Assembly: GCA_044229475.1 (NCBI GenBank)
Contig: JBGASW010000002.1
Coordinates: 743,517 to 807,516 of the forward strand
Length of the DNA: 64,000 bases
From: Thermoanaerobaculia bacterium
Lineage (GTDB): Bacteria > Acidobacteriota > Thermoanaerobaculia > UBA5066
Direction of reading: 5' to 3'
Numbering within the stretch: position 1 is the first letter of the stretch; each line of letters opens with the position of its first letter. Both the position numbers and the translations under genes were made by a program. Below the pieces are notes generated by a model that saw nothing but the letters and a program-made list of their open reading frames with translations, did not search any database and was not told the DNA's origin. Shown here piece after piece: positions 5,810 through 59,664 of this stretch.

Positions 5810-6778
5810 ATGCGCCGCAAGCCGCGCGCCCTTCTCTTTCTCGTCGCCGCACTGCTCATCGCGTCGTCTCCGGCACGGCCGGAGGAGATTTCTGCTTCGG
5901 AAATCCGCGTGTCGGCCGGGACGACCCGCTCCGGCGACCTCGTGGCTCTCGGAAGGAGGATTCTCTTAGAAGGTGAATTGGAAGGAAGCGTGGTGCTCGT
6001 CGGAGGCGGTGAGGCCGTGGTGACGGGTCGCATTCGTCGTGACCTCGTTCTCCTCGGTGCGAACGCCACGATTCGCCGCGGAGCCCGCATCGACGGCGAC
6101 GTCCTCTCCCTCGGCGGCTCTCTCACCTTCGAAGAAAATCCCCCGGTCTCTTCGGACGTCTCGCCTTTTCGCGGGCCGTCCCATCCGCAGGTCGGCGGGC
6201 GCGTTCGCACGGTCTCCGCCCTCGAGGCCGCCGTCGCCACGGAGCTGCAGACGTCCCCCGCCGCATCGCTCGCGCAGTGGCCGTTCCTCCTCTCGTTCCG
6301 CCTCGCGCTCCTCTTCGCGTGGCTCGTCGTCTCGCTCCTCCTCCTCGTTCTCGCGCCGCGGGCGATCGGCGAGTCCGCAGCGGGAGTCGCCGGGCGGAGT
6401 GCGTTCCTCGGCGCGCTCGGTGCAACCGCCGTCCTGACCGCCGCGCTCGCCGGCGCGCTCGCGCTGTCGCTCCTGCCGTCGCGCGTTTCGCTCGCGGCCG
6501 GCGCGGTCGTCCTCCTGGCGCTCGTCGCGGCGAAGGTCTGGGGGCTCACGGCGCTCTTCCTCGCCCTGGGCCGCCGCCTGAACGCGAGCGCCCGGCGCGG
6601 CAGCGCGCTCTTCGGCGATCCGGCCGCGGCTGCACTCGGCCTCCTCGCTCTCGGCGCCGCATCGCTCGTTCCGGTCGTGGGTCCCCTCGTCTGGGGCGCG
6701 GCGTCGCTCGTCGGGATCGGCGTTTCCCTCGCCGACGCCGCCTCCCGGGCCCCGCGGGTCGCGCTCGCGCCCTCCTGA
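5810..6778 (+). CDS. Bactofilin-like (polymer-forming beta-helix repeat) domain fused to a multi-pass membrane region
   Basis: Signal/TM N-terminus. Repeats [64 protein letters not shown] resemble bactofilin/CcmA repeats. C-terminal half is hydrophobic. Confidence 0.5.
5958..6140. repeat. Convergent motif pair inside the bactofilin-like gene (GGATTCTCTTAGAAGGTG 5958-5975; CCTTCGAAGAAAATC 6126-6140). Nearby 5885-5905 holds palindrome GATTTC-N7-GAAATC
   Basis: Read in-frame as [10 protein letters not shown] and LTFEENPP. Confidence 0.6.
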
Positions 6779-6824: not shown

Positions 6825-7706
6825 ATGAGTCTCGAAAAGATCGGCGTCGTCGGCGCCGGCCAGATGGGAGCGGGAATCGCGCACGTCGCGGCGCTCGCCG
6901 GCAAGAGCGTGGTCCTCCTCGACGTCTCCGACGACGCCGTGCAGAAGGGCCTGAAGGCGATCGGGAAGAACCTCGGCCGGCAGGTCGAGAAGGGCAAGGT
7001 CACGGCGGACACCCGCGACGCCGCGCTCGCGCGCATCTCTCCCACGACGGACCTGGGGCGTTTCGCCGACGCGGACCTCGTCGTCGAGGCCGTCGTCGAG
7101 AACGAGGACGTCAAGAAGGACCTCTTCGGGAAGCTCGACGTCCTCGTGAAGGCCGGCGGCATCCTCGCCTCCAACACCTCGTCGATCTCGATCACGCGTC
7201 TCGCGGCCTCGACGAAGCGGCCGGAGCGCTTCATCGGAATGCACTTCATGAACCCGGTGCCCGTCATGACGCTCGTCGAGGTCATCCGGGGGATCGCGAC
7301 GTCCGACGAGACGACGGCCTCCGTGGTCGCCCTCGCCGAGGCGATGGGGAAGACACCTCTCCTCTGCCGCGACTTCCCGGGCTTCGTCTCGAACCGCGTC
7401 CTGATGCCGATGCTCAACGAGGCGTTCTTCGTCCTCCACGAGGGCATCGCGACGCCCGAGGCCGTGGACGGGATCATGAAGCTCGGCATGAACCACCCGA
7501 TGGGCCCGCTCACGCTCGCCGACTTCATCGGCCTCGACACGTGCCTCGCGATCCTCCGCGTCCTGCACGGCGGCCTCGGCGACGACAAGTACCGCCCGTG
7601 CCCGCTCCTCGTGCAGATGGTCGACGCGGGCTGGCTCGGGAAGAAGGCCGGCCGAGGCTTCTATCGTTACGACGCCCCCGGTGGGAATCGGATTGAGATT
7701 TCTTAG
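6825..7706 (+). CDS. 3-hydroxybutyryl-CoA / 3-hydroxyacyl-CoA dehydrogenase
   Basis: N-terminal [13 protein letters not shown] Rossmann fold. Conserved NTSSISIT and [14 protein letters not shown] motifs. RBS AGGAG upstream. The TAG stop lies inside an AT-rich motif copy. Confidence 0.9.
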
Positions 7707-7751
7707 AAGGGAAGAGGGGCGAGCGGCGGGAGCTCCTCGGGTGGTCGTCCC

Positions 7752-9628: not shown

Positions 9629-9652
9629 CGTTCTTGGCATGCGTTTCCGTTG

Positions 9653-9680
9653 TTGACACGGAGTTTTCTTTGAATATAGA
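9653..9680 (+). promoter_or_regulatory. Sigma70-like promoter TTGACA-N16-TATAGA for the downstream TonB-dependent receptor
   Basis: TTGACA 9653-9658 and TATAGA 9675-9680 in an AT-rich intergenic island. An AT-rich motif copy (gagttttctttgaatat) occupies the spacer. Confidence 0.55.
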
Positions 9681-9735
9681 GTTCATAAAACAAACCGATT
9701 GTCCGGTTTTGCGGCGGGTGCCGCAGGAGGAAACG

Positions 9736-15263: not shown

Positions 15264-16891
15264 TCTCCGGCGACGTCCTCGGGGAGCGCGCGCGGCTGTC
15301 GCCGGAGAAGACCGCGCTCGTCGAGGTCGCGACGGGACGGCGCTTCACCTATGCGGAGCTGGATGCGCGCGCGAGAGGCGCGGCACGGACGCTGACCGAG
15401 GGGCTCGGCCTGAAAAAGGGCGACCGCATGGCCCTCCTCGCGGGCAATTGCGTGGAGTTCCTCGACGTCTTCTTCGCGTGCGGGAAGAACGGCGTCGTCC
15501 TCGTCCCGCTCAACACGCGCCAGACGGCGGGAGAGCTGATTGGCGTCCTCGAGGACGCAGAGCCGAAAGCGCTGATCTATGGAGCCGCGTTCGAAGAGAC
15601 CGTTGAAGATTTGCTTAGAAAGGTAAGAGGGGTAACCCCGGTTCTTCTCGACGCGCCGGCGCAGCGTGGCGCGAGGGCGGCGGGCGCGCCGAACGCCCGC
15701 ACCACCTTCAAGGAAATCTTCTCTTCTCCTCCAGCGGCGGCTCCTGCCGCCGCTGCAGAAGTCCCCTCTCCCGGCCCGGAAGATCTCTACTGCCTCCTCT
15801 ACACCTCCGGCACCACGGGCAAGCCGAAGGGCGTGATGGTGCCGCACCGGATGGTCGCGTGGAACGCGGTGAACACCGTCGTGTCGTGGCAGCTGCGCGA
15901 GGACGACGTGTCGCCGATCTACACGCCGCTGTACCACGCGGGCGGCCTCGGCGCGTTCCTGACGCCGGTCTTCGCGATCGGCGGGACGATCGTCCTCCAC
16001 GCCGGCTTCGACGCCGCGGAGGTCCTCGCGACGATCGGGAAGGAGCGCTGCACGGTGGTCCTCGGCGTGCCGACGATCTTCCGGATGCTCCAGGAGCACC
16101 CGTCGTGGGCGTCGGCCGACTTCTCCTCGGTCCGCTACTTCATCAGCGGTGGTGCGCCGCTGCCGCTCGACATCATCGAGACGTGGCACCGGCGCGGCGC
16201 GAACTTCAAGCAGGGCTACGGCCTCACCGAAGTCGGCGTGAACTGCTTCGCGATGAGCGTCGAGGAGTCCGTGCGGAAGGCCGGCTCGATCGGCAGGCCG
16301 ATGATGTTCACGGAGGCGAAGCTGACCGGCGAGGACGGGCGGGAGGTCCCGGTGGGCGAGGTCGGCGAGCTCCTCCTCAGGGGCCCGCACGTCTGCCGGG
16401 GCTACTTCCGGAATCCCGAGGCGACGGCGGCGTCGCTCGATGCCGAGGGCTGGTTCCACACGGGCGACCTCGCGAAGAAGGACGAGGACGGGTTCTTCAC
16501 GATCGCGGGCCGCAAGAAGGACATGCTGATCTCGGGCGGCGTGAACGTGTACCCGGCCGAGATCGAGGGTGTCCTCTTCCAGCATCCGCGGGTGAAGGAC
16601 GTCGCGGTCGTCGGCGTGCCCGACGAGAAGTGGGGCGAGGTCGGCGTGGCCTTCGTCGTTCGGAGGGAAGAAGGGAGAGAGGAGAAGGGAGAAGAGAAGA
16701 TTTCTTTGAAGGTAATAGGAGAGATGGCCGAACTGGCGGCCTTTGTCGAGGCGCGCCTCGCGAAGTACAAGGTTCCCCGGGAGTTCATCTTCGTCGCGAG
16801 CCTGCCCCGGACCCCCTATGGGAAAGTCGTGAAGGGTGACCTCCGCTCTCTTTACCTTTCAAAGAAATCTTCAACGAATGAAGCCCGATGA
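15260..16891 (+). CDS. Acyl-CoA synthetase / fatty-acyl-AMP ligase (AMP-binding family)
   Basis: GTG overlaps upstream stop (GTGA). AMP-binding motif YTSGTTGKPKGV, plus YGLTE and the C-terminal KYKVPREFIFVASLPRTPYGKV. Confidence 0.9.
   Translation: MISGDVLGERARLSPEKTALVEVATGRRFTYAELDARARGAARTLTEGLGLKKGDRMALLAGNCVEFLDVFFACGKNGVVLVPLNTRQTAGELIGVLEDAEPKALIYGAAFEETVEDLLRKVRGVTPVLLDAPAQRGARAAGAPNARTTFKEIFSSPPAAAPAAAAEVPSPGPEDLYCLLYTSGTTGKPKGVMVPHRMVAWNAVNTVVSWQLREDDVSPIYTPLYHAGGLGAFLTPVFAIGGTIVLHAGFDAAEVLATIGKERCTVVLGVPTIFRMLQEHPSWASADFSSVRYFISGGAPLPLDIIETWHRRGANFKQGYGLTEVGVNCFAMSVEESVRKAGSIGRPMMFTEAKLTGEDGREVPVGEVGELLLRGPHVCRGYFRNPEATAASLDAEGWFHTGDLAKKDEDGFFTIAGRKKDMLISGGVNVYPAEIEGVLFQHPRVKDVAVVGVPDEKWGEVGVAFVVRREEGREEKGEEKISLKVIGEMAELAAFVEARLAKYKVPREFIFVASLPRTPYGKVVKGDLRSLYLSKKSSTNEAR
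15605..15721. repeat. Convergent motif pair in acyl-CoA synthetase N-terminus (GAAGATTTGCTTAGAAAGG 15605-15623; CCTTCAAGGAAATCTTC 15705-15721)
   Basis: 17/19-nt near-reverse-complementary. Encodes DLLRKV and TFKEIFSS. Confidence 0.65.
16696..16882. repeat. Convergent motif pair at acyl-CoA synthetase C-terminus (GAAGATTTCTTTGAAGGTA 16696-16714; CCTTTCAAAGAAATCTTC 16865-16882), near-perfect 18-nt inverted repeat
   Basis: Arms differ by one inserted base. Encodes EKISLKVIGE and an unusual C-terminal tail LYLSKKSSTNEAR. Confidence 0.7.
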
Positions 16892-19228: not shown

Positions 19229-19263
19229 GCTTCGAGTCTAGACGAATGCCGCGGCGGATCCCG

Positions 19264-20574: not shown

Positions 20575-20663
20575 CGCGTCGAGTGTATGCGATTGCGCGC
20601 CGGTGCCGCTTCGCCCTGTAAAGCACTTGACGGTCCGCGGAGACCGCGCGCAGACTCCTGGCC

Positions 20664-21251
20664 ATGGCGGCGGAAGAGACCCCGACCCTCGGCGGCCGCG
20701 CGGAGGAGGACCTCCGCTTCATCCGCGACGCGATGGGCCGGGCCGCGGCGTTCACGTGCGTCCCCGGGAAGGGCGGCGTCGCCATGGGCGCCGTCGGCGT
20801 CGCCGCCGCGGCCTGGGCGGCCCGGGCGTCGTCGACGCGTGAGTGGCTCGCGATCTGGACCGGCGCCGCCGTCCTCGCGTTCGGGATCGGAGCGTTCGGC
20901 CTCCTTCGCAAGGCCGCGCGATTCGACCATCGGCCTTCGGTCTCGGCCGCCCGTCGCTTCGTGCTCGCGCTCCTGCCGCCCCTCGTCGCGGGCGCCGCCC
21001 TCACGGCCGCGCTCGCGTCCTCGGCCGCCGTCGCCTTCCTTCCGGGGATCTGGCTGCTTCTCTACGGGTGCGCCGTCGTCGCCGCGGGACTTCTCTCGGT
21101 GCCGGTCGTTCCTCTCTTCGGAGGAGCGCTGCTCGCCCTCGGCCTCCTGGCCCTCGTCTTCCCCGCCCACGGCGACCTCCTCCTCGGGAGCGGTTTCGGC
21201 CTGGGCCACGTTGTCTGCGGCGTCATCGTCGCGCGGAGGCACGGTGGGTAG
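20664..21251 (+). CDS. Hypothetical multi-pass membrane protein
   Basis: High GC3. Four or more hydrophobic helices. Divergent from the aminotransferase. Confidence 0.5.
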   Translation: MAAEETPTLGGRAEEDLRFIRDAMGRAAAFTCVPGKGGVAMGAVGVAAAAWAARASSTREWLAIWTGAAVLAFGIGAFGLLRKAARFDHRPSVSAARRFVLALLPPLVAGAALTAALASSAAVAFLPGIWLLLYGCAVVAAGLLSVPVVPLFGGALLALGLLALVFPAHGDLLLGSGFGLGHVVCGVIVARRHGG

Positions 21252-21318
21252 CGCCGCGCGCCCGCGGGCGGCGGGGAAGGAGCGGCCGAGGAAGGCGGCG
21301 CCGGCGTCCTCCGAGGCG

Positions 21319-21606
21319 ATGCGCCTCGACCGCGTGATCCACGAGCGCCTGCGCCTCGGAATCGTGAGCGCGCTCGCGGGTGCGCCGTCCCTCACATTCA
21401 ACGAGCTGAAGGGAATCCTCGGAGCGACCGACGGCAACCTGTCGGTCCACGCGCGCCGGCTCGAGGAGGCGGGTTACGTCTGCTGCACGAAGGGCTACGA
21501 CGGCCGCGTGCCGAAGACCGAATTCCGCCTCACCGAGGAGGGACGCCGCGCGCTGCGCCGCTACCTCGACCATCTCCAAGCCCTGATCGAGGCGACGAAG
21601 CGCTGA
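21319..21606 (+). CDS. Small winged-helix DNA-binding transcriptional regulator
   Basis: MRLDRVIHERLRLGIVSALAG...FNELKGILGATDGNLSVHARRLEEAGYVCCTKGYDGRVPKTEFRLTEEGRRAL is wHTH-like. An in-frame GTG at 21244 is an alternative start. Confidence 0.65.
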   Translation: MRLDRVIHERLRLGIVSALAGAPSLTFNELKGILGATDGNLSVHARRLEEAGYVCCTKGYDGRVPKTEFRLTEEGRRALRRYLDHLQALIEATKR

Positions 21607-21639
21607 GGCCGCGCCTCATCCTGCTAATCTCCGCGGCCT

Positions 21640-23421
21640 ATGCGCTGGTCCCAGTCGTTTCTCGTGACCCTCCGGGAGGTCCCCGGCGACGCCGAGGTGG
21701 TCTCCCATCAGCTCCTCTACCGCGCGGGCTTCATCCAGAAGCTCGCCGCCGGCATCTACTCGTACACGCCGTTCGGCTTTCGCTCGCTCAGGAAGATGAT
21801 CGAGATCGTGCGCGAGGAGATGGACGCCACGGGCGCCCAGGAAGTGGACCTCCCGATCCTCCAGCCGAAGGAGCTGTGGGTCGAGTCGGGCCGCTGGGAC
21901 CGCTACCAGGCCGAGGGAATCCTCTTCCACCTCAAGGACCGCAAGGACGGCGAGTTCGCGCTCGCGCCGACCGCCGAGGAGGCCGTGACGGACATGGTCC
22001 GGCGCTCCGTGACGTCCTGGCGGCAGCTCCCGTTCAACCTGTACCAGATCCGCACGAAGTTCCGCGACGAGATCCGGCCGCGCTTCGGCCTCCTGCGCGG
22101 CCGCGAGTTCCTCATGAAGGACGCGTATTCCTTCGACCTCGACCAGAAGGGCCTCGACGCGCACTACGAGAAGATGGACGCGGCGTACCGGAAGATCTTC
22201 GACCGCTGCGGCCTCGAGTTCGCGGTCGTGCAGGCGGACTCGGGCGCGATCGGCGGCTCGGCTTCGGAAGAGTTCATGGTCGTCGCCGACACCGGCGAGG
22301 ACGCGCTCGTGTTCGCGGAAGCCGGCGATTACGGCGCGAACATCGAGAAGGCCGTGACAGCGCCGCTCCCCGAGCCGTGGGCGGGGGAGGACGCGAAGCC
22401 GTTCCAGAAGGCGGGCGCCACGACCCCGGGCATTACGACTACGGACGGCCAGGCCAAACATCTCGCGACCGAACCGGCGCGCATCGTGAACACGATGCTC
22501 TACGAAGCCGTTGGACCGGACGGCAAGGCACGGCTCGTCGCGGTTCTCATCCGCGGCGATCTCGCCATCAACGAGGTCAAGCTTCCCAAGGCGCTCGGCG
22601 CGCTTCACGTGAAGCTCGCTTCGGAGGAGATTCTTCGAAAGGTCACAGGGACGCGCCCCGGATTCGTCGGGCCGCTCGGTCTTCAACCATTCGAAGAAAA
22701 TCCGATCTCCCTCTTCGTCGACCGGTCCCTGGAGCACGGAGTCAACGTATGGTGCGGGGCAAACCTCGACGACCATCATCATGCTCAGGTGTCCATCAAG
22801 CGTGACGTCATGTCCGATCCGGCTTTTGCCGGCGTCGTCGAGGTCGCGACCGCCCGCGACGGCGATCCCTCGCCGGCGCCGAAGGGCGGCGCGCTGCGCA
22901 TCAAGCGCGGCATCGAGGTCGGGCACATCTTCAAGCTCGGCACGAAGTACTCCGAGGCCATGAAGTGCGAGGTCGCCGACCAGGCGCAGAAGATGGTGCC
23001 GCTCGCGATGGGCTGCTACGGGCTCGGCCTCGGCCGCACGATCGCGGCCGCCATCGAGCAGCACCACGACGAGCACGGCATCGTGTGGCCCGTCCCGCTC
23101 GCGCCGTACGCGTGCGTCGTCGCGGCCCTCCAGCGCGACGCCGACGTCCTCGCCGCCGCCGACAAGCTCTACGGGGACCTGAAGGCCGCCGGCGTCGAGG
23201 TGTTTTACGACGACCGCGACGAGCGGCCGGGCGTGAAGTTCAAGGACATCGACCTCATCGGCTTCCCCGTGCGGGTCGTCGTCGGCGGGAAGTCGCTCGC
23301 GAAGGGCGTCGTCGAGGTCTCGACGCGGCGCGAGAAGCAGGCGCAGGGGATCGCCCTCGCGGACGTCGTCGGCGTCGTGAAGAAGACGCTCGCCGCGGGC
23401 GCGAAGACTCTGGCCGTGTAG
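21640..23421 (+). CDS. proS: Proline--tRNA ligase (bacterial type with editing domain)
   Basis: 593 aa. Class II aaRS motifs (FRDEIRPRFGLLRGREFLMKDAYSF; GIEVGHIFKLGTKYSE; MGCYGLGLGR). C-terminal anticodon-binding domain. Confidence 0.95.
   Translation: MRWSQSFLVTLREVPGDAEVVSHQLLYRAGFIQKLAAGIYSYTPFGFRSLRKMIEIVREEMDATGAQEVDLPILQPKELWVESGRWDRYQAEGILFHLKDRKDGEFALAPTAEEAVTDMVRRSVTSWRQLPFNLYQIRTKFRDEIRPRFGLLRGREFLMKDAYSFDLDQKGLDAHYEKMDAAYRKIFDRCGLEFAVVQADSGAIGGSASEEFMVVADTGEDALVFAEAGDYGANIEKAVTAPLPEPWAGEDAKPFQKAGATTPGITTTDGQAKHLATEPARIVNTMLYEAVGPDGKARLVAVLIRGDLAINEVKLPKALGALHVKLASEEILRKVTGTRPGFVGPLGLQPFEENPISLFVDRSLEHGVNVWCGANLDDHHHAQVSIKRDVMSDPAFAGVVEVATARDGDPSPAPKGGALRIKRGIEVGHIFKLGTKYSEAMKCEVADQAQKMVPLAMGCYGLGLGRTIAAAIEQHHDEHGIVWPVPLAPYACVVAALQRDADVLAAADKLYGDLKAAGVEVFYDDRDERPGVKFKDIDLIGFPVRVVVGGKSLAKGVVEVSTRREKQAQGIALADVVGVVKKTLAAGAKTLAV
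22627..22702. repeat. Convergent motif pair inside proS (GAGATTCTTCGAAAGGTC 22627-22644; CCATTCGAAGAAAATC 22687-22702)
   Basis: Encodes EEILRKVTG and QPFEENPIS. The intervening sequence is native-looking ProS (GPGxxGPL). Confidence 0.65.
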
Positions 23422-28953: not shown

Positions 28954-29053
28954 CGCGCGGCCGGAGGGCCGCGCGCCCGGGAAGCTCCTCATCGTCGTTC
29001 CCTCGCGGGCCGAGGGCGCGAGAGTCGGCGATCTTCCGGGCGATGTTCGAAGA

Positions 29054-29211
29054 GAGATTTCTTTGAAGGAGAATACGGCAGCCGCTGCCAGCGGCGCCGC
29101 GCCTGTGATGCCTCGGGTGCACGTCGACGTTCTCGTCGTTCTGGACGGCCCCGACGCCGATGCCGAGGCCCGTCTCAAAGCGGACGGCGTGGATTACCTT
29201 TCTAAGAAATC
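29054..29211. repeat. Convergent motif pair bracketing the GT2 start codon (GAGATTTCTTTGAAGG 29054-29069 upstream; CCTTTCTAAGAAATC 29197-29211 inside the CDS)
   Basis: 14/15-nt reverse complementary, about 150 bp apart, start codon 29108 in between. Confidence 0.65.
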
Positions 29212-30175
29212 TGCCGGTCCGGCGAAGGGAGACGCACTGGCGTTTCTCGCCGAGCAAATGGACGACCGGCTGGATGCCTACGATTTCATCCTCGTCTTCG
29301 ACGCCGACATGCGTTTGCCCGAGGGCTTCTTCCGCGACCTCCGCGTGCCCGGGGGGACGGAGGCGTTCCAGCTGCCGGTCCGTCCTTCGGGCGTCCCGGC
29401 GCCGGGCGCGCCGCGCGTCGAGGCGCTGTCGCTGGCCGAGGCTCGCCTCGACGACCTCGCACGCGACGCGGCGGGCCTTCCCGTGCGCCTGCGCGGCAAG
29501 GCGATGGGCTTTTCGCCGCGGGCGTTCCGCCTCGGCCCGGCGGCCGCGACGCGCACGACCGCCGAGGACTCCGAGGCGACGCTCGCGCTCCTCGCCAAGG
29601 GAATCGTCGTGCGCGCGCTGGACGGGCCAATGGCCTTCGACGAGCCGTCGTCCGACGCGGGCGCGATGGGGCGCTCCCGGGCGCGCTGGTTCGGCGGGCA
29701 CATGAAGCTGCTTTTCTCGGGTCTTGGAGATCTCGTTCGGAGCTTCGTGAGGCGGCCGGTCGGGACTCTCGTGCTGGCGGCGGATCTCTGGCTCCGTCCG
29801 AGGATCTTTCTGCTTGGGACCCTCGCGTTTCTTGCAGGCGCCTCGGATCTGGCGATGGTGGTTTTTTCTTCGAGTGGCGCGTGGTCTGCCTCGGCGCATG
29901 CAGCCGGCGGCGCCGCGGCGGCCGGGGGCGCGACTGGGGCGGCCATGCCCGTCGCGCTCCTGGTCTGCCTCCTGCTCCTTTCACTCGAAGGGAAGGCGGC
30001 CTTGCTCTTCGAGTGGCTTTCTCTCGCCGCGGTTCGCCATCGCATCGGATTCCCGGCGGAATGTCCCCCTGTTGCTCTCGCCGATCTCTCCGACTCTCTT
30101 CTCGTGTGGGCGGGCGCCGTCGTCCGCGGCGTGCTCGCACCGTCGCGGTGGCATCGCGCGAGGCCCGAGGCATGA
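29108..30175 (+). CDS. Putative family-2 glycosyltransferase with C-terminal membrane helices
   Basis: ATG 29108. VDVLVVLDG...DFILVFDADMRLPEGFF (DxD-like). Hydrophobic C-terminus. Several AT-rich motif copies inside. Confidence 0.55.
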   Translation: MPRVHVDVLVVLDGPDADAEARLKADGVDYLSKKSAGPAKGDALAFLAEQMDDRLDAYDFILVFDADMRLPEGFFRDLRVPGGTEAFQLPVRPSGVPAPGAPRVEALSLAEARLDDLARDAAGLPVRLRGKAMGFSPRAFRLGPAAATRTTAEDSEATLALLAKGIVVRALDGPMAFDEPSSDAGAMGRSRARWFGGHMKLLFSGLGDLVRSFVRRPVGTLVLAADLWLRPRIFLLGTLAFLAGASDLAMVVFSSSGAWSASAHAAGGAAAAGGATGAAMPVALLVCLLLLSLEGKAALLFEWLSLAAVRHRIGFPAECPPVALADLSDSLLVWAGAVVRGVLAPSRWHRARPEA

Positions 30176-31320
30176 AGGCCGTCCTCCTCGTCCCGCGCCT
30201 GCCGGGCACGGGCCACACGGGCGACCGCCTGCGCGCCGAGCTGCACCTCGCGGCGCTCGCGTCGGCGGGCTTCGAGACGGCCGTCGTCGGGGGAACGGAG
30301 ACGGGGGATTTCCTTCGAATGAAGAACGCGGCGGCCGTTCATCCCGTGCGGCTCCGTCGGGCCCTGATTCCTGCGGGGCTCGCGTCGGCGGTGCTTTCCG
30401 GCGAGCCGCTGCAGTCCGCGCTCTTCGCAGGACCTTTCGGCGTCGCCCTGCGCGAAGCGGCCCGTGACGCGGACCTCCTCGTCTGCGTCCTCCTCCCGCG
30501 TCTTCTCGCGCACGTGGGCCCGCTGCCGGCGATTCCGCGCGTCGTGGACTACGTCGACGCGCTCGCCGCGGCCGCGCGCCAGGCGGCGAACGACGACCCG
30601 GCTCCCTGGCGCCGCGCCTACTGGGAAGCCGAGGCGCCGCGCCTCGCACGCGCCGAGGCGCGCGCAGCCGAGGGCGCCGCCGTGCTCTTCGCGACGACGC
30701 CGTTCGACGCGGCGCATCTCCCGCGCGGAACGCGCGCCGTGGCGAACGGCGTTTCGCTCGGGCCGCTCGCGCCCGGGCCGCGAGGCCCCGTCGTGGCATT
30801 CTCGGGCCGGCTCCGGTACCGTCCGAACGTCCTCGCCGTGAAACGCCTCCTCGACGTCTGGCCCCGCGTGAGACGGGAGGAACCGGCGGCGCGCCTCGTC
30901 CTCGGAGGCGCCGACGCCCCGGCATGGCTCCTCGCGCGTTCGGGAAAGGACGGCGTCGAGGTCGTGAGCCCCGTCGCGGACATGGCCGCGTTTCTCCGGA
31001 CGGCGCGCGTGGCCGCGGCGCCCGTCGCCATGGGGACCGGCACGCCGAACAAGATCTTCGAGGCGTTCGAAGCGGGTGCCGCCGTGGTCGCGTCCCCCGA
31101 GGTCGCCGAGCGGGCCTCGGCGGGCGGCGAGGCGCCGCCGGTGAAGGTCGCGCGCACGGACGACGAGTTCGCCGAGGCTCTCGTCGCGCTTCTGACGGAC
31201 GCCGACGCCGCCTCCCGGGAGGGAGCGCGCGGCCGGGCGTGGGTCGAAGCGCACGCGGACCGCCGCGCCTCGGTGGATGCGCTCGCCGCCGGGTATCGTG
31301 ACGCGCGGGGGCACGCGTGA
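30172..31320 (+). CDS. Glycosyltransferase family 1/4 (GT-B fold)
   Basis: ATGA overlap with the GT2 gene. C-terminal ...TPNKIFEAFEAGAAVVAS is typical of GT1 donor-binding region. Confidence 0.7.
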   Translation: MKAVLLVPRLPGTGHTGDRLRAELHLAALASAGFETAVVGGTETGDFLRMKNAAAVHPVRLRRALIPAGLASAVLSGEPLQSALFAGPFGVALREAARDADLLVCVLLPRLLAHVGPLPAIPRVVDYVDALAAAARQAANDDPAPWRRAYWEAEAPRLARAEARAAEGAAVLFATTPFDAAHLPRGTRAVANGVSLGPLAPGPRGPVVAFSGRLRYRPNVLAVKRLLDVWPRVRREEPAARLVLGGADAPAWLLARSGKDGVEVVSPVADMAAFLRTARVAAAPVAMGTGTPNKIFEAFEAGAAVVASPEVAERASAGGEAPPVKVARTDDEFAEALVALLTDADAASREGARGRAWVEAHADRRASVDALAAGYRDARGHA

Positions 31321-35207: not shown

Positions 35208-36354
35208 GCCGGGCGCGGTGCGCGCGCCACGCGGCGAGCACCTTCAGGAGCAGGCCGCCGTGGGCGACACGGGAGATCTGGCTCGGGGAGAGAGCACAGA
35301 GACGGGACGCTGCGCGGCGCCCGCGACGCGGACGAGAGATGGAGGACGGGGGAAGAAGACTTTCTTTGAAGGTGAAGAGGGAAATCCGATAGCGCCTCTC
35401 GAGTACGGAATGGCGAAGCACCGCCACCGGCTCGATTGCGCTGACGTCACGCCCGGCGAGACGCTTCCACCACCTTCTAAGAGAATTTGCAGACCCGTCC
35501 CCGGCGCGCACGCGCAGCATCGGAGGGACGAGGTGGCCGGCGACCATCTCCTGATCTTCAACCAGCAGAATCTTCTTTCCTCTCTCCACGATCGCGCCGA
35601 CGAGATGAATCGTCCTGGGCGAAACGCGGGCGGCCGCCCGCGGAAACGCCTCCGGCGTCCCGCCCGCGGCCGCGCGGCAGGAGGAGCGGAGCGGGCACGC
35701 GCCGCAGCGCGGCGCGCGCGGCGTGCAGACGAGCGCTCCAATCTCCATGAGGGCCTGGTTGAAGTCGCCCGGATTCCGCGCCGGCACGAGAGGCCGGGCG
35801 ACCGCCCGGACCCTCGCGAGCGTCGCGGACGTCTTCGGGTCGAGCTTGAGCGCCTTGAGACGGCAGAGGACGCGCACGACGTTGCCGTCCACCACGGGCT
35901 CGGGGATGCCGTATGCGATCGACGCGACCGCGGCGGCCGTGTACGCGCCCACGCCGGGGAGCGCACGCCAGCCTTCGAGCGTGCGCGGAAACGCGCCCGC
36001 CGCGGCGACGGCCCTCGCGGCGCGGTGGAGGTTCCGGGCGCGCGCGTAGTACCCGAGGCCGCTCCACTCGGCGAGGACGTCGCACTCCTTCGCGCGGGCG
36101 AGCGCCTCGACGGTCGGGAAGCGCGCGCGGAAGCGTTCCCAGCGGGGCACGACGACGTCGAGCGTCGTCTGCTGCGCCATGATCTCGGAGAGCCAGATCG
36201 CGTACGGGTCGCGCGTGGAGCGCCACGGCAGGCTGCGCCGCGCCCGGCGATACCAGCGCGCGAGCCGGCGCGTCAGGTCGGCCGGGTCGTCGATCACGGG
36301 CGGGAGTCTAGACTCGGTGCGTGGACGTCGACTGGGAAGGCCTGACGGTCGCAT
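35161..36354 (-). CDS. mutY: A/G-specific adenine DNA glycosylase
   Basis: HhH-GPD region WSGLGYYARARNL. 4Fe-4S Cys cluster CTPRAPRCGACPLRSSC. C-terminal NUDIX-like domain. Alternative GTG start at 36297. Confidence 0.85.
   Translation of the reverse strand: MRPSGLPSRRPRTESRLPPVIDDPADLTRRLARWYRRARRSLPWRSTRDPYAIWLSEIMAQQTTLDVVVPRWERFRARFPTVEALARAKECDVLAEWSGLGYYARARNLHRAARAVAAAGAFPRTLEGWRALPGVGAYTAAAVASIAYGIPEPVVDGNVVRVLCRLKALKLDPKTSATLARVRAVARPLVPARNPGDFNQALMEIGALVCTPRAPRCGACPLRSSCRAAAGGTPEAFPRAAARVSPRTIHLVGAIVERGKKILLVEDQEMVAGHLVPPMLRVRAGDGSANSLRRWWKRLAGRDVSAIEPVAVLRHSVLERRYRISLFTFKESLLPPSSISRPRRGRRAASRLCALSPSQISRVAHGGLLLKVLAAWRAHRARLRREPEESVPAERRS
35355..35488. repeat. Convergent motif pair in mutY 3' region (GAAGACTTTCTTTGAAGGTG 35355-35374; CCTTCTAAGAGAATTT 35474-35488). 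A further related copy lies at 35568-35595
   Basis: On the mutY coding strand they read FTFKESLL and ANSLRRWW. Confidence 0.6.
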
Positions 36355-43656: not shown

Positions 43657-44241
43657 GTGGCGGCGAGCGGTTCCTTCTACGGGCTCCTGACGCGGCGGGT
43701 GGGCGAGGCCCGCCTTGCGGCCGCGCTCCCGCACCTGCCGAGGGGCGGCGGCGGCAGAGTCCTGGACGTGGGCTGCGGCCTGACGGATCTCGCGGCGCGG
43801 ATCCCCGACTACACCGGCGCAGACCGCAATCCCGACGTGCTCGCCGAACAGAGAGGGAGATTTCCGAAGAGAGATTTCTATGAATGGGACATCGTTCGGG
43901 GCGCGGCTCCGGCGGCGCTCTCGGCGAAAGCACCATTCGGGGGAATTCTTCTTCTGGCCGTCCTCGAACACGTTCAGGAACCCGCTTCGGTGCTCGGACG
44001 TCTCGCGCCGCTTCTCGCGCCCGGAGGCCGGTTGATCGCGACGACGCCTCATCCGAGCGGCCGCTGGCCGCTGGAGGCGGGCGCGGCGCTCGGCCTGCTC
44101 TCCTCCCACGCCCATGACGAGCACGAGACGCTCCTCGGCCGCGAGTCCCTGGAATCGGCGGGCCGCGCTTCGGGGCTGTCTCTCGTTCTCTACCGGAGGT
44201 TCCTCCTCGGCATGAACCAGCTCGCGGTCTACACACGGTGA
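43657..44241 (+). CDS. Class I SAM-dependent methyltransferase
   Basis: GTG start. Motif I VLDVGCGLTDLA. Post-I acidic region. LLLAVLEHV. Confidence 0.7.
   Translation: MAASGSFYGLLTRRVGEARLAAALPHLPRGGGGRVLDVGCGLTDLAARIPDYTGADRNPDVLAEQRGRFPKRDFYEWDIVRGAAPAALSAKAPFGGILLLAVLEHVQEPASVLGRLAPLLAPGGRLIATTPHPSGRWPLEAGAALGLLSSHAHDEHETLLGRESLESAGRASGLSLVLYRRFLLGMNQLAVYTR
43855..43951. repeat. Tandem forward copies (GGGAGATTTCCGAAGAG 43855-43871; GAGATTTCTATGAATGG 43871-43887) plus reverse copy CCATTCGGGGGAATTCTTC 43933-43951 in methyltransferase gene
   Basis: Encodes RGRFPKRDFYEWD and KAPFGGILL. Confidence 0.55.
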
Positions 44242-47200
44242 CGGCCGGCCCCCGCCTCGTCCGCCGCGGCGCGGACGCGATCCATGTCGTGAACGCCCGC
44301 ACGCACAACCTCAGGGACGTCACGTGCACGATCCCCGTGGGGGCGCTCACCGTCGTGACGGGCCCTTCGGGTTCCGGCAAGTCTTCGCTCGCGTTCGACA
44401 CGCTCTACGCCGAGGGCCAGCGTCGCTTCGTCGAGTCCATGTCCACGTACGCGCGCCAGTACCTCGAGCGGCTCGAACGTCCGGACGTGGACGAGATCAC
44501 GCACGTCCTCCCGGCGATCGCGATCGAGCAGAGGGCGCCCGCGCGCTCGGCGCGCTCGACGATCGGGTCGGCCACCGAGATCCACGACGTCCTGCGCCTC
44601 CTCTTCTCGGCCGCGGGCACGCTGCGCTGCCCGGACGACGGCAGCCCCGTGCGCCGCGAGACGGCCGAGAGCGTCCGGGCGGCTCTTCTCGAAGAGTTCG
44701 GCGAGGGCGCGCGCCTCCTCGTCGTCGCGCCTCGCAGAGTGACGTCGTTCGCGGCGGAGAGCGCGGAGTGGAGGAGGCTTGGCTTCTACCGGTACGTCGG
44801 AGCTGCGGGCGACGTTCTGGAAATAGAAGAGAAGATTTCTTCGAGTGAAAGAGAGAGGGAGAGCAGCTCGCCGCCCCGCAGGGCCGTAGCGCGTTCGAGC
44901 GCGGCGCGTCGTCCCTCTTCACCCTTCAAAGAGATCCCCTCTTCCTCCCTCTTCCCTCTGCTCATCGGCCGCCACGTACTGCGGGCTGACGATCCGGAAA
45001 TCCTCTCTTCACTTTCAACGGCCTTCGACGCCGCAGACGGATCGCTTCTCGTCTTGAAGTCCGGAGAGGGTCTTTCCTCCGCCCGCACGTTCCGCCGCGG
45101 CCTGTCGTGCAACGCGTGCGGCCGGGCGTTCGCGGACCCGGTGCCCGCGCTCTTCTCGTTCAACTCGCCGCGCGGGGCCTGCGAGACGTGCCAGGGGTTC
45201 GGGCGGATCGTCGGCATCGACGCGGCGCGCGTCATTCCCGACCCGCGCAAGACGCTGCGCGAGCGTCCGATCGCACCGTTCAACTCGCCCTCGTACGAGA
45301 GCGCGTACGACGACCTCAAGGCGGCGTCGCGCCGCCTCAAGCTGCGGTGGGACGTTCCCTGGAACGAGCTGACGCAGCGGGAGAGGGACGCCGTCTGGAC
45401 GCGCTCCGGAGATTGGTACGGCGTCGAGGGCCTCTTCGAGTACCTCGAGAAGAAGCGCTACAAGGTTCAGGTTCGCGTCATGCTCGCGCGCTACCGCGGC
45501 TACTCGACGTGCCCCGAGTGCCGCGGCGCGCGGCTGAGGCCCGAGGCGCTCGCCGTGACGGTCGGCGGAAAGACGATCGCCGAGGTCTGCGACCTGACGC
45601 TCGACGGATTCGTGGCGTTTCTCGGGGCGCTCCCGCTGCGCGAAGCCGAGCGCGAGCGGGCAGCTTCCCTCGTCGAGGAGCTGGCGCGGCGCGCGGGGAC
45701 GCTCGTCGAGATCGGCCTCGGCTACCTGACGCTCGCGCGCACGATGCGCACGCTGTCGGGCGGTGAGGCTCAGCGCGTCCAGCTCGGCTCCGCGATCGGC
45801 AACGCGCTGACCGGAACGCTCTACGTCCTCGACGAGCCGACGGTGGGCCTGCATCCGCGGGACACGCGGCGGCTCCTCGCGGTCCTCGAGAGGCTCGCGG
45901 CCGCGGGCAACGCGGTCGTGGCCGTCGAGCACGACACGGACGTCATCCGTGCGGCCGACCACGTCATCGACCTCGGCCCGGGGGCCGGCGCGCTCGGCGG
46001 GCGGCTCGTCTTCGAAGGAACGCCGGAGGAGCTGACCGAGGCGGACACCGCGACGGGAAGGTCGTTGAAGAAGGAGAAAGAGATACTTCTTGCTTCGGAC
46101 GCGGCGGGATACGGGCCGACTGTGGCGACGGACGCCGTGGCTGCGGAGACGGTGGGAGCCTTCGGCACTTTCTTTGAAGGTGGAGTGAGTGCAGGCGCGC
46201 CCGAGAGGCCGGAGGGCCGCATTCGCCCCGCCGCCCATTCACCTTCTAAGGAAAACCATCGTGACGATTCGATTCGCGTGCCACTCGAATCGATACAGGT
46301 CGTGGGTGCGCGAGCAAATAATCTCCAGAACCTCTCGGTCTCGTTTCCCTTGCGGCGGCTGGTGGCGGTGTCCGGGGTGTCGGGGTCGGGGAAATCCTCC
46401 CTCGTCGTCGACGTTCTCGCCGCGGGCGCGCGGCAGCGCATGGGCAAGGGCCTCCTGCCGGGCATCGACGCGGTGGGGGAGCACGATGGCATCTTCGGGC
46501 TCGAGCACGTTTCGGACGTCATCCTCGTCGACCAGTCGCCGCCCGGGCGCTCCTCGCGCTCGAACCCGGCGACCGTGACGAAGGCTTGGGACGAGATCCG
46601 GACGCTCCTCGCCCGGACGCCCGCCGCGAAGGCGCGCGGCCTCGAGAAGGGCGCCTTCAGCTTCAACGCGGCGGGCGGGCGGTGCGAGAGGTGCGAGGGC
46701 GCCGGCGTCGTGACCGTGGACATGCAGTTCCTCGCGGACGTGACGATCGTCTGCGACGTCTGCGACGGGCGCCGCTTCAAACCGGAGGTCCTCGAGGTGC
46801 GCCTGAGGGGCCGGAACGTCGACGAACTCCTCGCGACGACCGTCGACGAGGCGCGCCTCCTCTTCGCGGACGCGCCCGCCATCGCGAGCCGCCTCCAGCC
46901 GCTCGCCGACGCGGGGCTCGGGTACCTCACGCTCGGCCAGTCGACGGCGACGCTCTCGGGCGGAGAGGCGCAGCGGCTGAAGATCGCGACGTTCCTCCGG
47001 GGGGCCGAGGCCCCGAAGGCGCCGGTCCTGTTCGTTTTCGACGAGCCGACGACCGGCCTGGCGCCGTCCGACGTCGACGTCCTCCTCGCCGTGTTCCGCC
47101 GGCTCCTCGCGGCCGGCCATTCGATCGTCGCGGTCGAGCACAACACGGCCTTTCTCGCGCGCGCCGACCACCTGATCGAGCTGGGCCCGGACGGCGGCCC

Positions 47201-58764: not shown

Positions 58765-59664
58765 TCAGGGTCTGAGAAGAACCTTCAGGACTCCCGGGCG
58801 CCCAGCCTCGCGGAGCGCGCGAACCGCCTGGCCGAGCGGGAATTCCGACGAAAGGAGGAAGAGGACGTCCGCTCTTTTCATTCGAAGGAATTCGAGCGCC
58901 GGTTCGAAGCGCCCGCAGCGTGAACCCACGACGGTGACCTCGTTCACGACGAGCGGCGCGGCGTCGAAACGGGCGGGCGCGTGATGCGTCGACTTCCAGA
59001 CGATCGTTCCGCGCGGTTTCACGAGAGCCAGGGCGCGCGGCATCCCCGCGGGCGAGCCCGTGGCCTCGACGACGAGGTCGAACGACGCGGCCTTCGCTCG
59101 CGTCGTGCGACCGAGAAGAGCGACGTCGGCGCCCGCAGTCCCCAGCACGGCCGCAGCGAGGCGCCCGAGCTTGCCGGGCCCGAGGACAGCCGCGCGCGTT
59201 CCGGACGGCACCGCGACCTGGTCGAGGATCTCGCAGGCGGCCGCGAGCGGCTCGACGAAGACGGCCTCTTCGTCGGCGACGCCCGGCGGAACCTCGAAGA
59301 GATTCGCCTCGGGAAGGGTCAGCCACTCGGCGTGCGCGCCCGCGTGGCCGCGGATGCCGAGGACCGTGCGCGTCGGGCAGTGGCGCCCAAGTCCCTGCGC
59401 GCACCATGAGCACAGTCCGCACGCGAGGTTGATCTCGCCGACGACGCGCTTGCCGAGCCACGGCGACGCCGCCGGCCCTTCGACGATGCCGACGAACTCG
59501 TGGCCGGGGATTCCCGAGAAGCCGTGGTATCCGCGCTTCAGCTCGAGATCGGTGTTGCAGATCCCGGAAAGAAGGATCCGGACGAGCGCGAAGCCCTTCC
59601 GCGGCGAGGGCCGCCGCACGTCGCGGACAGCGGCCCTGCCATTGTCGAAGACGAGAGCGCGCAT
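58765..59664 (-). CDS. Zinc-dependent alcohol dehydrogenase-like oxidoreductase (MDR family)
   Basis: Start ATG rc 59662-59664 (MRALVFDNG...). Zinc ligands GHEFVG and CGLCSWC. NAD fold [11 protein letters not shown]. Carries two AT-rich motif copies on its coding strand. Confidence 0.8.

What the first reader, a model, noticed from the sequence alone, without database searches (positions are those of the whole stretch)
22627..22702. In proS the motif pair replaces native residues without changing length, which suggests selection on the DNA motif rather than insertion
Aligned from memory to E. coli ProS, the segment ASEEILRKVTGTRPGFVGPLGLQPFEENPIS matches [25 protein letters not shown] with at most a 4-aa length difference.

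The intervening GPGxxGP region is native ProS. The two motif copies (gagattcttcgaaagg / ccattcgaagaaaatc) merely re-encode similar residues with rare AT-rich codons.

This fits an uptake-signal or binding-site-like motif accreted by point mutation. It could also be a very old insertion whose interior was overwritten. It contrasts with uvrA, where the copies come with extra low-complexity peptide
Basis: partly seen in the sequence, partly recalled or inferred. Interest (0 to 1): 0.75.

Follow-up and report, generated by a model that had tools for sequence, protein, structure and literature searches.

The report
Genome-wide paired DNA motif overwriting proS codons
Two short AT-rich DNA signals in the essential proS gene belong to a lineage-specific, genome-wide family of head-to-head motif pairs that has overwritten codons without changing protein length and has been held at the DNA level across more than 20 species, and whose reader is unknown.

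Summary
The two motif copies sit at 22627-22642 (+) and 22687-22702 (-) inside proS (21640-23421).

They are one member of a repeat family. Each "arm" reads RRRRRR-ATTTCTT-N-GAARG-KRAA. Arms occur as convergent pairs 60-300 bp apart, and only the arms are repeated, never the interior.

The family is confined to one Thermoanaerobaculia clade: 83 arms in 441 kb, against 1 in 927 kb of related genomes.

In proS the nearest arm-less relative (L035) has exactly the same length. Identity to it is 26/30 between the arms but only 10/23 and 10/29 within them, so there are two substitution patches and no indel. The interior encodes the native GxxPGxxGP segment.

Across 22 species, 11 of the 17 codon columns whose majority codon is rare lie in the 22 arm codons (Fisher p = 2e-13). 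The same arm is read in at least five reading frames in other genes, so the constraint is on DNA.

There is no compensatory pairing, no G.U bias on the sense strand, and partner arms are no more alike than unrelated arms. Each arm therefore behaves as an oriented recognition site rather than half of a conserved hairpin.

The uptake-signal analogy fails on the strict pairing. What reads the motif is unknown.

The parts
21640..23421 (+). proS (bacterial-type prolyl-tRNA synthetase with INS editing domain), 593 aa
   Evidence: ORF. Precomputed Pfam PF00587, PF04073 and PF03129 on homologues. E = 1e-161 to P. aeruginosa ProRS 5UCM.
22625..22647 (+). Encodes E-I-L-R-K-V-T with rare codons ATT, CTT, CGA, ACA.
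   Evidence: nhmmer arm model hit 22625-22642, 7.6 bits. Conserved in 20 of 22 species as GAGATTCTT(C/A)GAAAGGT. Only 10/23 identity to the arm-less L035, with no gap.
22648..22685 (+). Interior: native ProS sequence (G-T-R-P-G-F-V-G-P-L-G-L) with ordinary GC-rich codons
   Evidence: Gap-free alignment to 5UCM [9 protein letters not shown]. 26/30 identity to L035 over 22648-22677. Third positions drift freely among species.
22686..22704 (-). Encodes Q-P-F-E-E-N-P with rare codons CAA, CCA, GAA, GAA, AAT.
   Evidence: nhmmer hit 22704-22686, 11.7 bits. TTCGAAGAAAATCC is conserved across the clade. 10/29 identity to L035 over 22678-22706, no gap. Corresponds to a 6-aa loop absent from P. aeruginosa ProRS.
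5954..6145 (.). Family member: convergent pair inside ORF 5810-6778 (no Pfam match)
   Evidence: Arms score 12.4 and 15.6 bits. Pfam result.
7694..7716 (+). Solo arm overlapping the stop codon of ORF 6825-7706
   Evidence: 13.2 bits. Sequence.
15606..15725 (.). Family member: pair in the N-terminal half of an AMP-binding (acyl-CoA ligase) gene. The arms recode native-looking peptides (DLLRKV, TFKEIF).
16693..16872 (.). Family member: pair flanking the native C-terminal motif (KYKVPREF...LPRTPYGKV) of the same AMP-binding gene
   Evidence: The left arm is absent in L036 and degenerate in L017 (both 11-13 aa shorter). It is read in another frame in L014 and L015.
29050..29215 (.). Family member: pair spanning a gene end and the next gene's start. 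Orthologous copies exist in at least 6 species.
30301..30326 (+). Solo arm inside a glycosyltransferase gene (29881-31320)
   Evidence: 14.1 bits. Pfam. No partner is visible in the sequence.
35355..35489 (.). Family member: pair inside a MutY/EndoIII-like gene (35161-36354, minus strand), after the Fe-S motif
43867..43952 (.). Family member: intergenic pair between a divergent GNAT gene and uvrA
44829..44942 (.). Family member: whole-element in-frame insertion in uvrA (44238-47309)
   Evidence: The alignment to T. maritima UvrA 3PIH breaks at query residues 202-240.
46164..46261 (.). Family member: second whole-element in-frame insertion in uvrA
   Evidence: The alignment to 3PIH breaks at query residues 617-677.
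58835..58896 (.). Family member, short pair with a weak left arm, intergenic
   Evidence: 5.0 and 11.6 bits. Reported as inverted repeat I9.

Best explanation
The proS motif pair is an orthologously fixed member of a clade-specific, genome-wide family of short DNA signals.

What the element is. Each signal ("arm") is a purine tract followed by the core ATTTCTT-N-GAARG and more purines. Arms occur head-to-head, with the GAAGG ends facing inward, 60-300 bp apart. Nothing between them is shared among copies.

What happened in proS. Two patches of about 7-10 codons in the INS editing domain were overwritten in place, with no indel. They lie on either side of the native GxxPGxxGP segment. They have been held at the nucleotide level, as rare AT-rich codons, since the clade radiated.

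Shown: the family exists, it is clade-specific, its arms are convergently paired, proS has no indel, synonymous sites are constrained, and the motif is independent of reading frame.

Inferred mechanism: each arm is an oriented recognition site on DNA for a sequence-specific factor that acts on two head-to-head sites. Candidates are a transposase- or recombinase-derived protein or a chromosome-structuring protein. New arms arise singly, either as a ~35-nt insertion in tolerant loops or as a short-patch replacement where the native peptide is compatible. They are then retained by selection or by continuing conversion drive.
For: Family and arm profile.

Clade specificity: 83 arms of at least 9 bits in 441 kb of the clade, 0 in 241 kb of the sister clade, and 1 in 686 kb of other Acidobacteriota.

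Pairing: 33/33 adjacent arms are '+-' and 64/83 in metagenome contigs. Of 184 strong arms, 126 have a convergent partner, against 1 divergent and 9-16 direct.

Only the arms are repeated: interiors are similar only between orthologous copies, 114 of 124 interior matches.

proS:
- Same length as arm-less L035. Identity is 10/23 in the left arm, 26/30 in the interior and 10/29 in the right arm.
- Mean AT3 across 22 species is 0.10. 11 of the 13 columns with AT3 of at least 0.7 lie in the arms.
- A rare codon is the majority in 11 of 22 arm columns against 6 of 546 elsewhere, p = 1.7e-13.

DNA rather than protein: the same arm is read as EKISLKV, FFEGE, LSKKS, TFKEIF or LQRNL in different genes, and in different frames in orthologues of one gene.

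Recognition site rather than hairpin:
- 0 compensatory pairs, and 81.8% of cells paired against 81.9% in shuffles.
- The central N and the GAAGG/GAAAGG variant differ between partners.
- Own-partner identity is 0.648 against 0.657 across unrelated elements.
- Sense-strand G.U against A.C discrepancies are 111 against 102.

Arms gained or lost singly: the AMP-ligase left arm is absent in L036 and degenerate in L017 while the right arm is kept. L008 proS lacks the left arm only.
Against: - No trans-acting factor was identified.
- About one third of strong arms have no detectable partner, so pairing may not be obligatory.
- Compact 61-bp copies between convergent genes (L221) look like plain hairpins or terminators.
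- In isolation the arms do pair in minimum-free-energy folds, so a structural role in single-stranded DNA or RNA is not excluded. Invariant columns carry no covariation information either way.
- Variable spacing without helical phasing is unusual for a looping DNA-binding protein.
- The outer purine tracts vary in length like microsatellites, which a pure binding-site model does not predict.
- Selection and conversion drive cannot be separated with these data.
Confidence: 0.55

Rival explanations
1. Hairpin-forming mobile repeats of the MITE, REP/REPIN or Rickettsia-palindromic-element type. The arms are terminal inverted repeats or stem halves, the elements were inserted as units by an enzyme acting in trans, and the interiors have since diverged.
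For: - Inverted-repeat architecture of 60-300 bp, with arms predicted to pair.
- Whole-element in-frame insertions in uvrA.
- Compact 61-bp palindromic copies between convergent genes.
- Copies in both genes and spacers.
- Ancient orthologous copies, as reported for RPEs (PMC10969869, read).
Against: - In proS and in both AMP-ligase pairs the interior is native, conserved coding sequence, so the pair cannot have arrived as one insert.
- There is no indel in proS.
- Non-orthologous copies share no interior.
- Partner arms are no more alike than unrelated arms, and there are no compensatory changes.
- The outer flanks are inverted purine/pyrimidine tracts, not direct target duplications.
- Only 3 long-range '+...-' arm pairs exist in about 1.6 Mb. 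The two examined enclose housekeeping genes, not a transposase.
Confidence: 0.2
2. A DNA uptake signal analogous to USS/DUS. A competence receptor prefers the motif, and biased uptake plus recombination drives its accumulation by substitution, including inside genes.
For: - Clade-specific motif with a ~12-nt core of about 19 bits at roughly one arm per 3-6 kb.
- Recoding of codons without indels, at orthologous and conserved positions.
- Half or more of copies are in ORFs, comparable to 65%, 49% and 34.5% for the three USS/DUS genomes in PMC2817400.
Against: - Strict convergent pairing at 60-300 bp is not a property of USS/DUS, where single motifs are the unit.
- Many arms come as ~35-nt insertions with expandable GA tracts.
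- Arms use rare codons, whereas USS frame usage correlates with preferred codons (PMC2817400 abstract).
- There is no evidence on competence in this uncultured clade.
Confidence: 0.13
3. An RNA-level element. The two arms form a stem in the mRNA that controls stability, processing (an RNase III-like enzyme) or termination.
For: - The arms pair in predicted RNA folds on either strand.
- Some pairs lie just after stop codons or between convergent genes.
Against: - No preference for G.U over A.C on the sense strand, 111 against 102.
- No compensatory substitutions in 22 species, and the C22-G79 pair is broken in 14 of 22.
- Both arms keep the same sequence profile instead of mere complementarity.
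- Long stems inside essential ORFs would be costly.
- No Rfam family matches even at E of 1 or less.
Confidence: 0.08
4. Chance, or a protein or translation effect. The AT-rich codons would be a rare-codon pause or a conserved peptide, unrelated to other motif copies.
For: The peptide EEILRKV...PFEEN is conserved in the clade.
Against: - The same DNA motif recurs in spacers and in at least five reading frames.
- The joint codon choice is extremely improbable.
- The motif family and the proS arms share exactly the same phyletic distribution.
Confidence: 0.02
5. Intragenic invertons. A site-specific invertase flips the segment between the arms to recode or switch off genes.
For: Inverted repeats flanking short intragenic segments, as in the intragenic invertons described in bioRxiv 10.1101/2023.03.11.532203 (listed).
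Against: - Inversion would create stop codons in proS, the AMP-ligase C-terminus and the second uvrA element.
- None of the 22 proS orthologues, nor any aligned orthologue of the other pairs, is inverted.
- Hundreds of identical sites per genome would scramble the chromosome.
Confidence: 0.02

Closest known systems
DNA uptake signal sequences (Pasteurellaceae USS, Neisseriaceae DUS)
   Same: - A short, lineage-specific motif at one copy per few kb.
- Sits inside genes by recoding codons without indels.
- Found at orthologous positions across species.
- The constraint or drive acts on DNA, not protein (PMC2817400).
   Different: - Here the unit is a convergent pair 60-300 bp apart.
- Arms carry expandable purine tracts and are often small insertions.
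- Arms use rare rather than preferred codons.
- No link to competence is known.
Rickettsia palindromic elements (RPEs) and other intragenic MITEs
   Same: - Palindromic repeats of about 100-150 bp found in frame inside housekeeping genes and also in spacers.
- Ancient, orthologously shared copies (PMC10969869).
- The two uvrA elements behave this way.
   Different: - RPE families share the whole element and a peptide. Here only the arms are shared.
- In proS and the AMP-ligase the arms flank native sequence.
- No target duplication and no parent element were seen.
REP, BIME and REPIN elements
   Same: - High-copy short repeats arranged as inverted pairs with a variable linker.
- A proposed role as protein-binding sites (for example for gyrase and IHF; recalled from the literature, not tested here).
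   Different: - REPs are individually palindromic, carry GTAG or CGTC heads and are extragenic (PMC3733652 abstract).
- These arms are not self-palindromic, and at least half lie inside ORFs.
Integron attC sites
   Same: Only the two ends are conserved, the centre is variable, the length range is similar, and the pairing is imperfect.
   Different: - No RYYYAAC / GTTRRRY core sites.
- Not arranged at cassette boundaries.
- Located inside essential genes.

Membership tests
USS/DUS-type uptake signal | Short motif strongly over-represented genome-wide in one lineage | tested here: met
   1.9 arms per 10 kb in the clade against 0.01 or fewer per 10 kb in 927 kb of relatives.
USS/DUS-type uptake signal | Copies in genes arise by substitution, without indels, at permissive residues | tested here: inconclusive
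   Met in proS and apparently in the AMP-ligase N-terminal pair. Not met in uvrA or the AMP-ligase left arm.
USS/DUS-type uptake signal | A single motif is the functional unit, and neighbouring copies have no obligatory orientation | tested here: not met
   33/33 adjacent arms are convergent. 126 proper partners against 1 divergent.
USS/DUS-type uptake signal | Preferential uptake of motif-bearing DNA by competent cells | not testable with these tools
   The clade is uncultured, so this needs an experiment.
MITE / Rickettsia palindromic element | The whole element, interior included, is shared among copies of a family | tested here: not met
   Interior similarity is found only between orthologous copies.
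MITE / Rickettsia palindromic element | Presence of the element adds length relative to the empty site | tested here: inconclusive
   Yes in uvrA. No in proS.
MITE / Rickettsia palindromic element | Direct target-site duplications, and a parent IS with the same termini | tested here: inconclusive
   The flanks are inverted purine/pyrimidine tracts. No transposase lies between the two long-range arm pairs examined. Whole genomes were not searchable.
REP / BIME / REPIN | Each unit is an imperfect palindrome with a GTAG or CGTC head | tested here: not met
   The arm profile has no such head and no internal palindrome beyond TTC...GAA.
REP / BIME / REPIN | Extragenic location | tested here: not met
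   56 of 113 pairs lie wholly inside GC3-supported ORFs.
REP / BIME / REPIN | An associated RAYT (Y1 transposase) gene | not tested
   Needs whole-genome annotation of clade members.
Integron attC | R''/R' core sites RYYYAAC...GTTRRRY at cassette ends | tested here: not met
   Absent from the arm profile. The copies lie inside housekeeping genes.
Intragenic inverton | Inversion between the repeats yields an alternative open product, and both orientations exist | tested here: not met
   Stop codons appear after in-silico inversion in proS, the AMP-ligase C-terminal pair and the second uvrA element. No inverted orthologue was seen. Read-level data are not available.
Known structured RNA (Rfam) | Match to a curated covariance model | tested here: not met
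   0 hits at gathering threshold over the whole window. 0 hits at E of 1 or less over 15500-23000.

The most novel reading that the evidence does not exclude
A family-level clade of Thermoanaerobaculia carries an undescribed genome-wide dyad DNA signal, with hundreds of head-to-head arm pairs per genome. It would be read by an unknown DNA-transaction machine and be strong enough, through selection or conversion drive, to overwrite codons in essential genes such as proS, cysS and uvrA without changing protein length. That would be a new class of genomic signal alongside USS/DUS, Chi and REP, with its own cognate protein still to be found.
Probability: 0.35. Interest if true: 0.8.

Novelty: new variant of a known kind. 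Interest (0 to 1): 0.66.

Why it matters
Very few DNA signals are known to be strong enough to reshape the coding sequence of essential genes. USS/DUS are the textbook case.

This family shows the same kind of overprinting: rare AT-rich codons held for the whole radiation of a clade in a genome with about 90% GC3. Its architecture is different, being convergent pairs with nothing shared between the arms, and it occurs in an uncultured acidobacterial lineage.

It gives a concrete and testable handle:
- The arm motif can serve as bait for an unknown DNA-binding or DNA-processing system.
- It is a marker for assigning contigs to this clade.
- It is a natural experiment on how proteins tolerate DNA-level overprinting. 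The same arm is read in five frames, and in proS the two arms flank a segment that, from memory of the E. coli literature and not tested here, is the GXXXP loop of the editing site.

Tried and rejected
- Viral-contig scan for the arm core. It returned only single chance hits in AT-rich phage contigs (mean GC 0.38), so it was uninformative.
- Rfam at gathering threshold over the whole window and at E of 1 or less over 15500-23000. No family matched.
- blastn of a compact 68-nt element against the plasmid and phage collections. No match.
- Conserved-hairpin model. No covariation, no wobble bias, and no extra similarity between partners.
- Inverton model. Inversion creates stop codons.
- Search for a parent transposon between distant '+...-' arms. 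The two pairs examined enclosed only housekeeping genes.
- Search for a cognate gene flanked by dense arms. The densest cluster is uvrA in the window itself.
- Literature searches for a description of such repeats in Acidobacteria or Thermoanaerobaculia. Nothing relevant was found.
- Similarities recalled from memory, all too weak to use: the CodY box, the Spo0A box, the IS5 terminus GGAAGGTG, and the complement of the 16S rRNA 3' tail.
- The pair at 9656-9779 may be a false positive. Its left "arm" overlaps a textbook TTGACA-N16-TATAGA promoter.
Full report
**1. The observation**

- The two copies are at 22627-22642 (GAGATTCTTCGAAAGG, + strand) and 22687-22702 (CCATTCGAAGAAAATC, which is GATTTTCTTCGAATGG on the minus strand).
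- Both lie inside a 593-aa ORF, 21640-23421, that is bacterial-type ProRS.
- The window is about 70% GC.
- The 9-mer TTCTTCGAA occurs 4 times against 0.45 expected. The 16-mer with up to 3 mismatches occurs 7 times against 0.18 expected. No shuffle reaches either count.
- The codons used are rare in the window's other genes: ATT 4%, CTT 4.7%, CGA 2.3%, AGA 0.9%, ACA 2.4%, CAA 0.5%, CCA 1%, GAA 12.5%, AAT 5.3%.

**2. The copies belong to a repeat family**

- A scan for AT-rich islands and a look at their sequences showed that the proS copies are two "arms" of a family.
- The arm profile is RRRRRR-A-TTTCTT-N-GAA-R-G-K-R-A-A. The central N is unconstrained and the flanks are purine-only. Left and right arms have the same profile.
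- An nhmmer model of the arm finds at least ten pairs and several single arms in the window.
- The pairs lie in or next to: an unannotated ORF, both ends of an AMP-binding ligase gene, proS, a gene junction near 29.1 kb, a MutY-like gene, the spacer upstream of uvrA, and twice within uvrA.

**3. The family is confined to one clade**

- ProS homologues place the window in uncultured Thermoanaerobaculia (Acidobacteriota). Eighty proS loci from different species were fetched.
- Arms of at least 9 bits number 83 in 441 kb of the clade with 76-100% ProS identity. They number 0 in 241 kb of the sister clade and 1 in 686 kb of more distant relatives.
- These are exactly the genomes whose proS carries the pair.
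- A metagenome scan for a stringent arm pattern returned 93 of 120 hits on contigs of at least 62% GC, with 222 arms in 516 kb.

**4. Architecture**

- In the related genomes all 33 adjacent arms (less than 400 bp apart) are convergent. None is in any other configuration.
- In the metagenome contigs the counts are 64 '+-', 10 '++', 6 '--' and 3 '-+'.
- Of 184 strong arms, 126 have a partner of at least 5 bits in the convergent position. Only 1 has a divergent partner and 9-16 have a direct one. 58 have no detectable partner.
- Element length runs continuously from 61 to about 370 bp.
- Interiors are alike only between orthologous copies, 114 of 124 interior matches.
- About half of the pairs lie wholly inside ORFs with coding-type GC3.
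- Compact 61-bp copies fill the gap between convergent genes in two contigs.

**5. proS in detail**

- Within the clade the peptide SEEILRKVTGTRPGFVGPLGLQPFEENPISLFVDRS is conserved.
- The sister clade has EEWLPEIAGCKPGFIGPIGLKPRAGQDEVPVYVDRS, which is one residue longer, uses GC-rich codons and has no motif. More distant relatives are 3-5 residues shorter after GP.
- In an NJ tree built without the arm region, the arm-less L035 and L017 (which has partial arms) branch at the base of the arm-bearing clade.
- L035 has exactly the same length through the region. Its identity to the window is 10/23 over the left arm, 26/30 over the interior and 10/29 over the right arm. The arms are therefore two dense substitution patches around an almost unchanged native core.
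- Against P. aeruginosa ProRS (5UCM) the left arm and interior align without gaps. The right arm coincides with a 6-aa loop, QPFEEN. That loop length therefore predates the arms.
- Across 22 species the mean AT3 of proS is 0.10. Only 13 codon columns reach AT3 of 0.7 or more, and 11 of them are residues 327-333 and 347-354.
- A rare codon is the majority in 11 of 22 arm columns against 6 of 546 elsewhere (Fisher p = 1.7e-13).
- Neighbouring third positions run through all four bases, for example the Gly codon at alignment column 48.

**6. The constraint is on DNA, not protein or RNA**

- In ORFs the same core is translated as EKIS(L/S)KV (33 cases), (D/I)F(F/L)EGE (14), (L/P)SKKS (27), (T/P)F(K/E)EI (24) and L(Q/R)RNL (7).
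- In the AMP-ligase C-terminus the orthologous arm is read as EKISLKV in most species but as EKSFFEGE in L014 and in a second alternative reading (ERNSSKVE) in L015.
- For an RNA stem one expects compensatory changes and tolerance of G.U on the transcribed strand. Neither is seen:
  - The proS alignment has 0 pairs changed on both sides.
  - 81.8% of cells are paired, against 81.9% in shuffles.
  - The C22-G79 pair is broken in 14 of 22 species.
  - Transition discrepancies between partners are G.U-compatible on the sense strand 111 times and A.C 102 times.
- Partner arms are no more alike (0.648) than arms of unrelated elements (0.657).
- The central N and the GAAGG/GAAAGG variant differ freely between partners.
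- Each arm thus tracks a family consensus, as a recognition site does. It does not track its partner.

**7. How arms arise**

- In uvrA both elements are whole in-frame insertions relative to solved UvrA structures. The alignment breaks at query residues 202-240 and 617-677.
- In the AMP-ligase C-terminus the left arm plus its GA tract is a ~35-nt insertion. It is missing in L036 and present only as a degenerate remnant in L017. Both species keep the right arm.
- The GA/CT tracts outside the core vary in length like microsatellites, and L034 has two tandem left arms.
- L008 proS has the right arm but an ancestral-looking EEKLLGIAG in place of the left arm.
- Arms are therefore gained and lost one at a time, by small insertion in tolerant loops or by in-place replacement where the native peptide is compatible. 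E. coli and Pseudomonas already have EE(E)IRA at the left-arm position.
- These data cannot tell whether the proS patches came from stepwise substitution or from one short-patch conversion from another arm.

**8. Mechanism**

- Best supported: an oriented DNA recognition site used in head-to-head pairs by an unknown, clade-specific factor, kept by selection or by conversion drive.
- What remains open is the identity of the factor and whether recognition is of duplex DNA or of a transient foldback. The arms do pair in isolated folds, and compact copies look like hairpins.
- Inversion switching is unlikely. Inverting the segment gives stop codons in proS, the AMP-ligase C-terminus and the second uvrA element, and no orthologue is inverted.
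- No transposase lies between the two distant arm pairs examined.
- No Rfam family, plasmid or phage sequence matches.

**9. Comparison with known systems**

- It works most like USS/DUS in overprinting codons without indels and in being conserved at orthologous sites (PMC2817400). It fails the defining single-motif architecture and often comes with small insertions.
- It resembles Rickettsia palindromic elements in the uvrA-type in-frame insertions (PMC10969869). It lacks a shared interior, and in proS it flanks native sequence.
- It is not REP/BIME: there is no GTAG or CGTC head, the arms are not self-palindromic, and half the copies are intragenic.
- It is not attC: there are no core sites.
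- I therefore rate it a new variant within short interspersed bacterial repeats. There is a substantial chance (about 0.35) that it marks an undescribed DNA-signal system.

**10. Limits**

- All genomes are metagenome-assembled, and some (L064, L078, L034) have frameshifts or stop codons near arms that may be assembly errors.
- Gene calls outside the window rest on a crude GC3 rule.
- Orthologous copies inflate some counts.
- The NJ tree uses a single protein.
- Whole genomes could not be scanned, so copy number per genome (roughly 700-1,100 arms, extrapolated from the densities to a genome of about 3.8 Mb) is an estimate.
- From memory of the E. coli ProRS literature, the interior GxxPGxxGP corresponds to the conserved GXXXP loop of the editing site. 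This was not tested here.

Noticed in passing
window 44238-47309 (uvrA), elements at 44829-44942 and 46164-46261, plus the pair at 43867-43952 upstream: uvrA and its upstream spacer hold three pairs within 2.4 kb, the densest cluster in all the DNA examined. Both intragenic elements are whole in-frame insertions relative to solved UvrA structures, and they add GA-rich low-complexity peptide.
   Followed up: partly
window 16693-16872 and orthologues in L001, L012, L014, L015, L030, L034, L036, L017, L064: In the AMP-ligase C-terminus the purine and pyrimidine tracts outside the arm cores vary in length between species like microsatellites. The arm is read in different frames in different species. 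L034 has two tandem left arms and an in-frame stop codon.
   Followed up: partly
L307 5479-7098 (minus-strand gene): A cysteinyl-tRNA synthetase in a metagenome contig also carries in-frame arms (EEKISLKV ... SRKSSS), so a second aminoacyl-tRNA synthetase is affected.
   Followed up: no
L221 11388-11455, and L304 3741-3801: Minimal 61-bp elements (two arms with a 7-nt loop) exactly fill the gap between the stop codons of convergent genes. They look like bidirectional terminator hairpins.
   Followed up: partly
window 9650-9700: A near-consensus sigma-70 promoter (TTGACA-N16-TATAGA) lies upstream of a TonB-dependent receptor gene (start probably ATG 9736). It overlaps a weak arm hit, so the pair at 9656-9779 may be a false positive.
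   Followed up: no
L008 2536-2635 (proS): L008 is nested within the arm-bearing clade in the ProS tree, yet it has an ancestral-looking EEKLLGIAG instead of the left arm while keeping the right arm. This means loss by replacement, recombination with an arm-less lineage, or tree error.
   Followed up: partly
L064 and L078, proS region around 10930-11150: The proS reading frame is broken just upstream of or within the arm region in two long-read-derived genome bins. This may be homopolymer assembly error at the T-runs of the arms rather than real pseudogenes.
   Followed up: no
window 35161-36354 (minus strand): A MutY/EndoIII-like gene (HhH-GPD and Fe-S motif) carries a pair (35355-35489) after the Fe-S motif. 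Together with uvrA, two DNA-repair genes in this window carry elements.
   Followed up: no
window 7694-7716 and 29050-29075: In two places the arm supplies the stop codon of the upstream gene: TAG within CTTAGAAGG, and TGA within TTTGAAGG.
   Followed up: no
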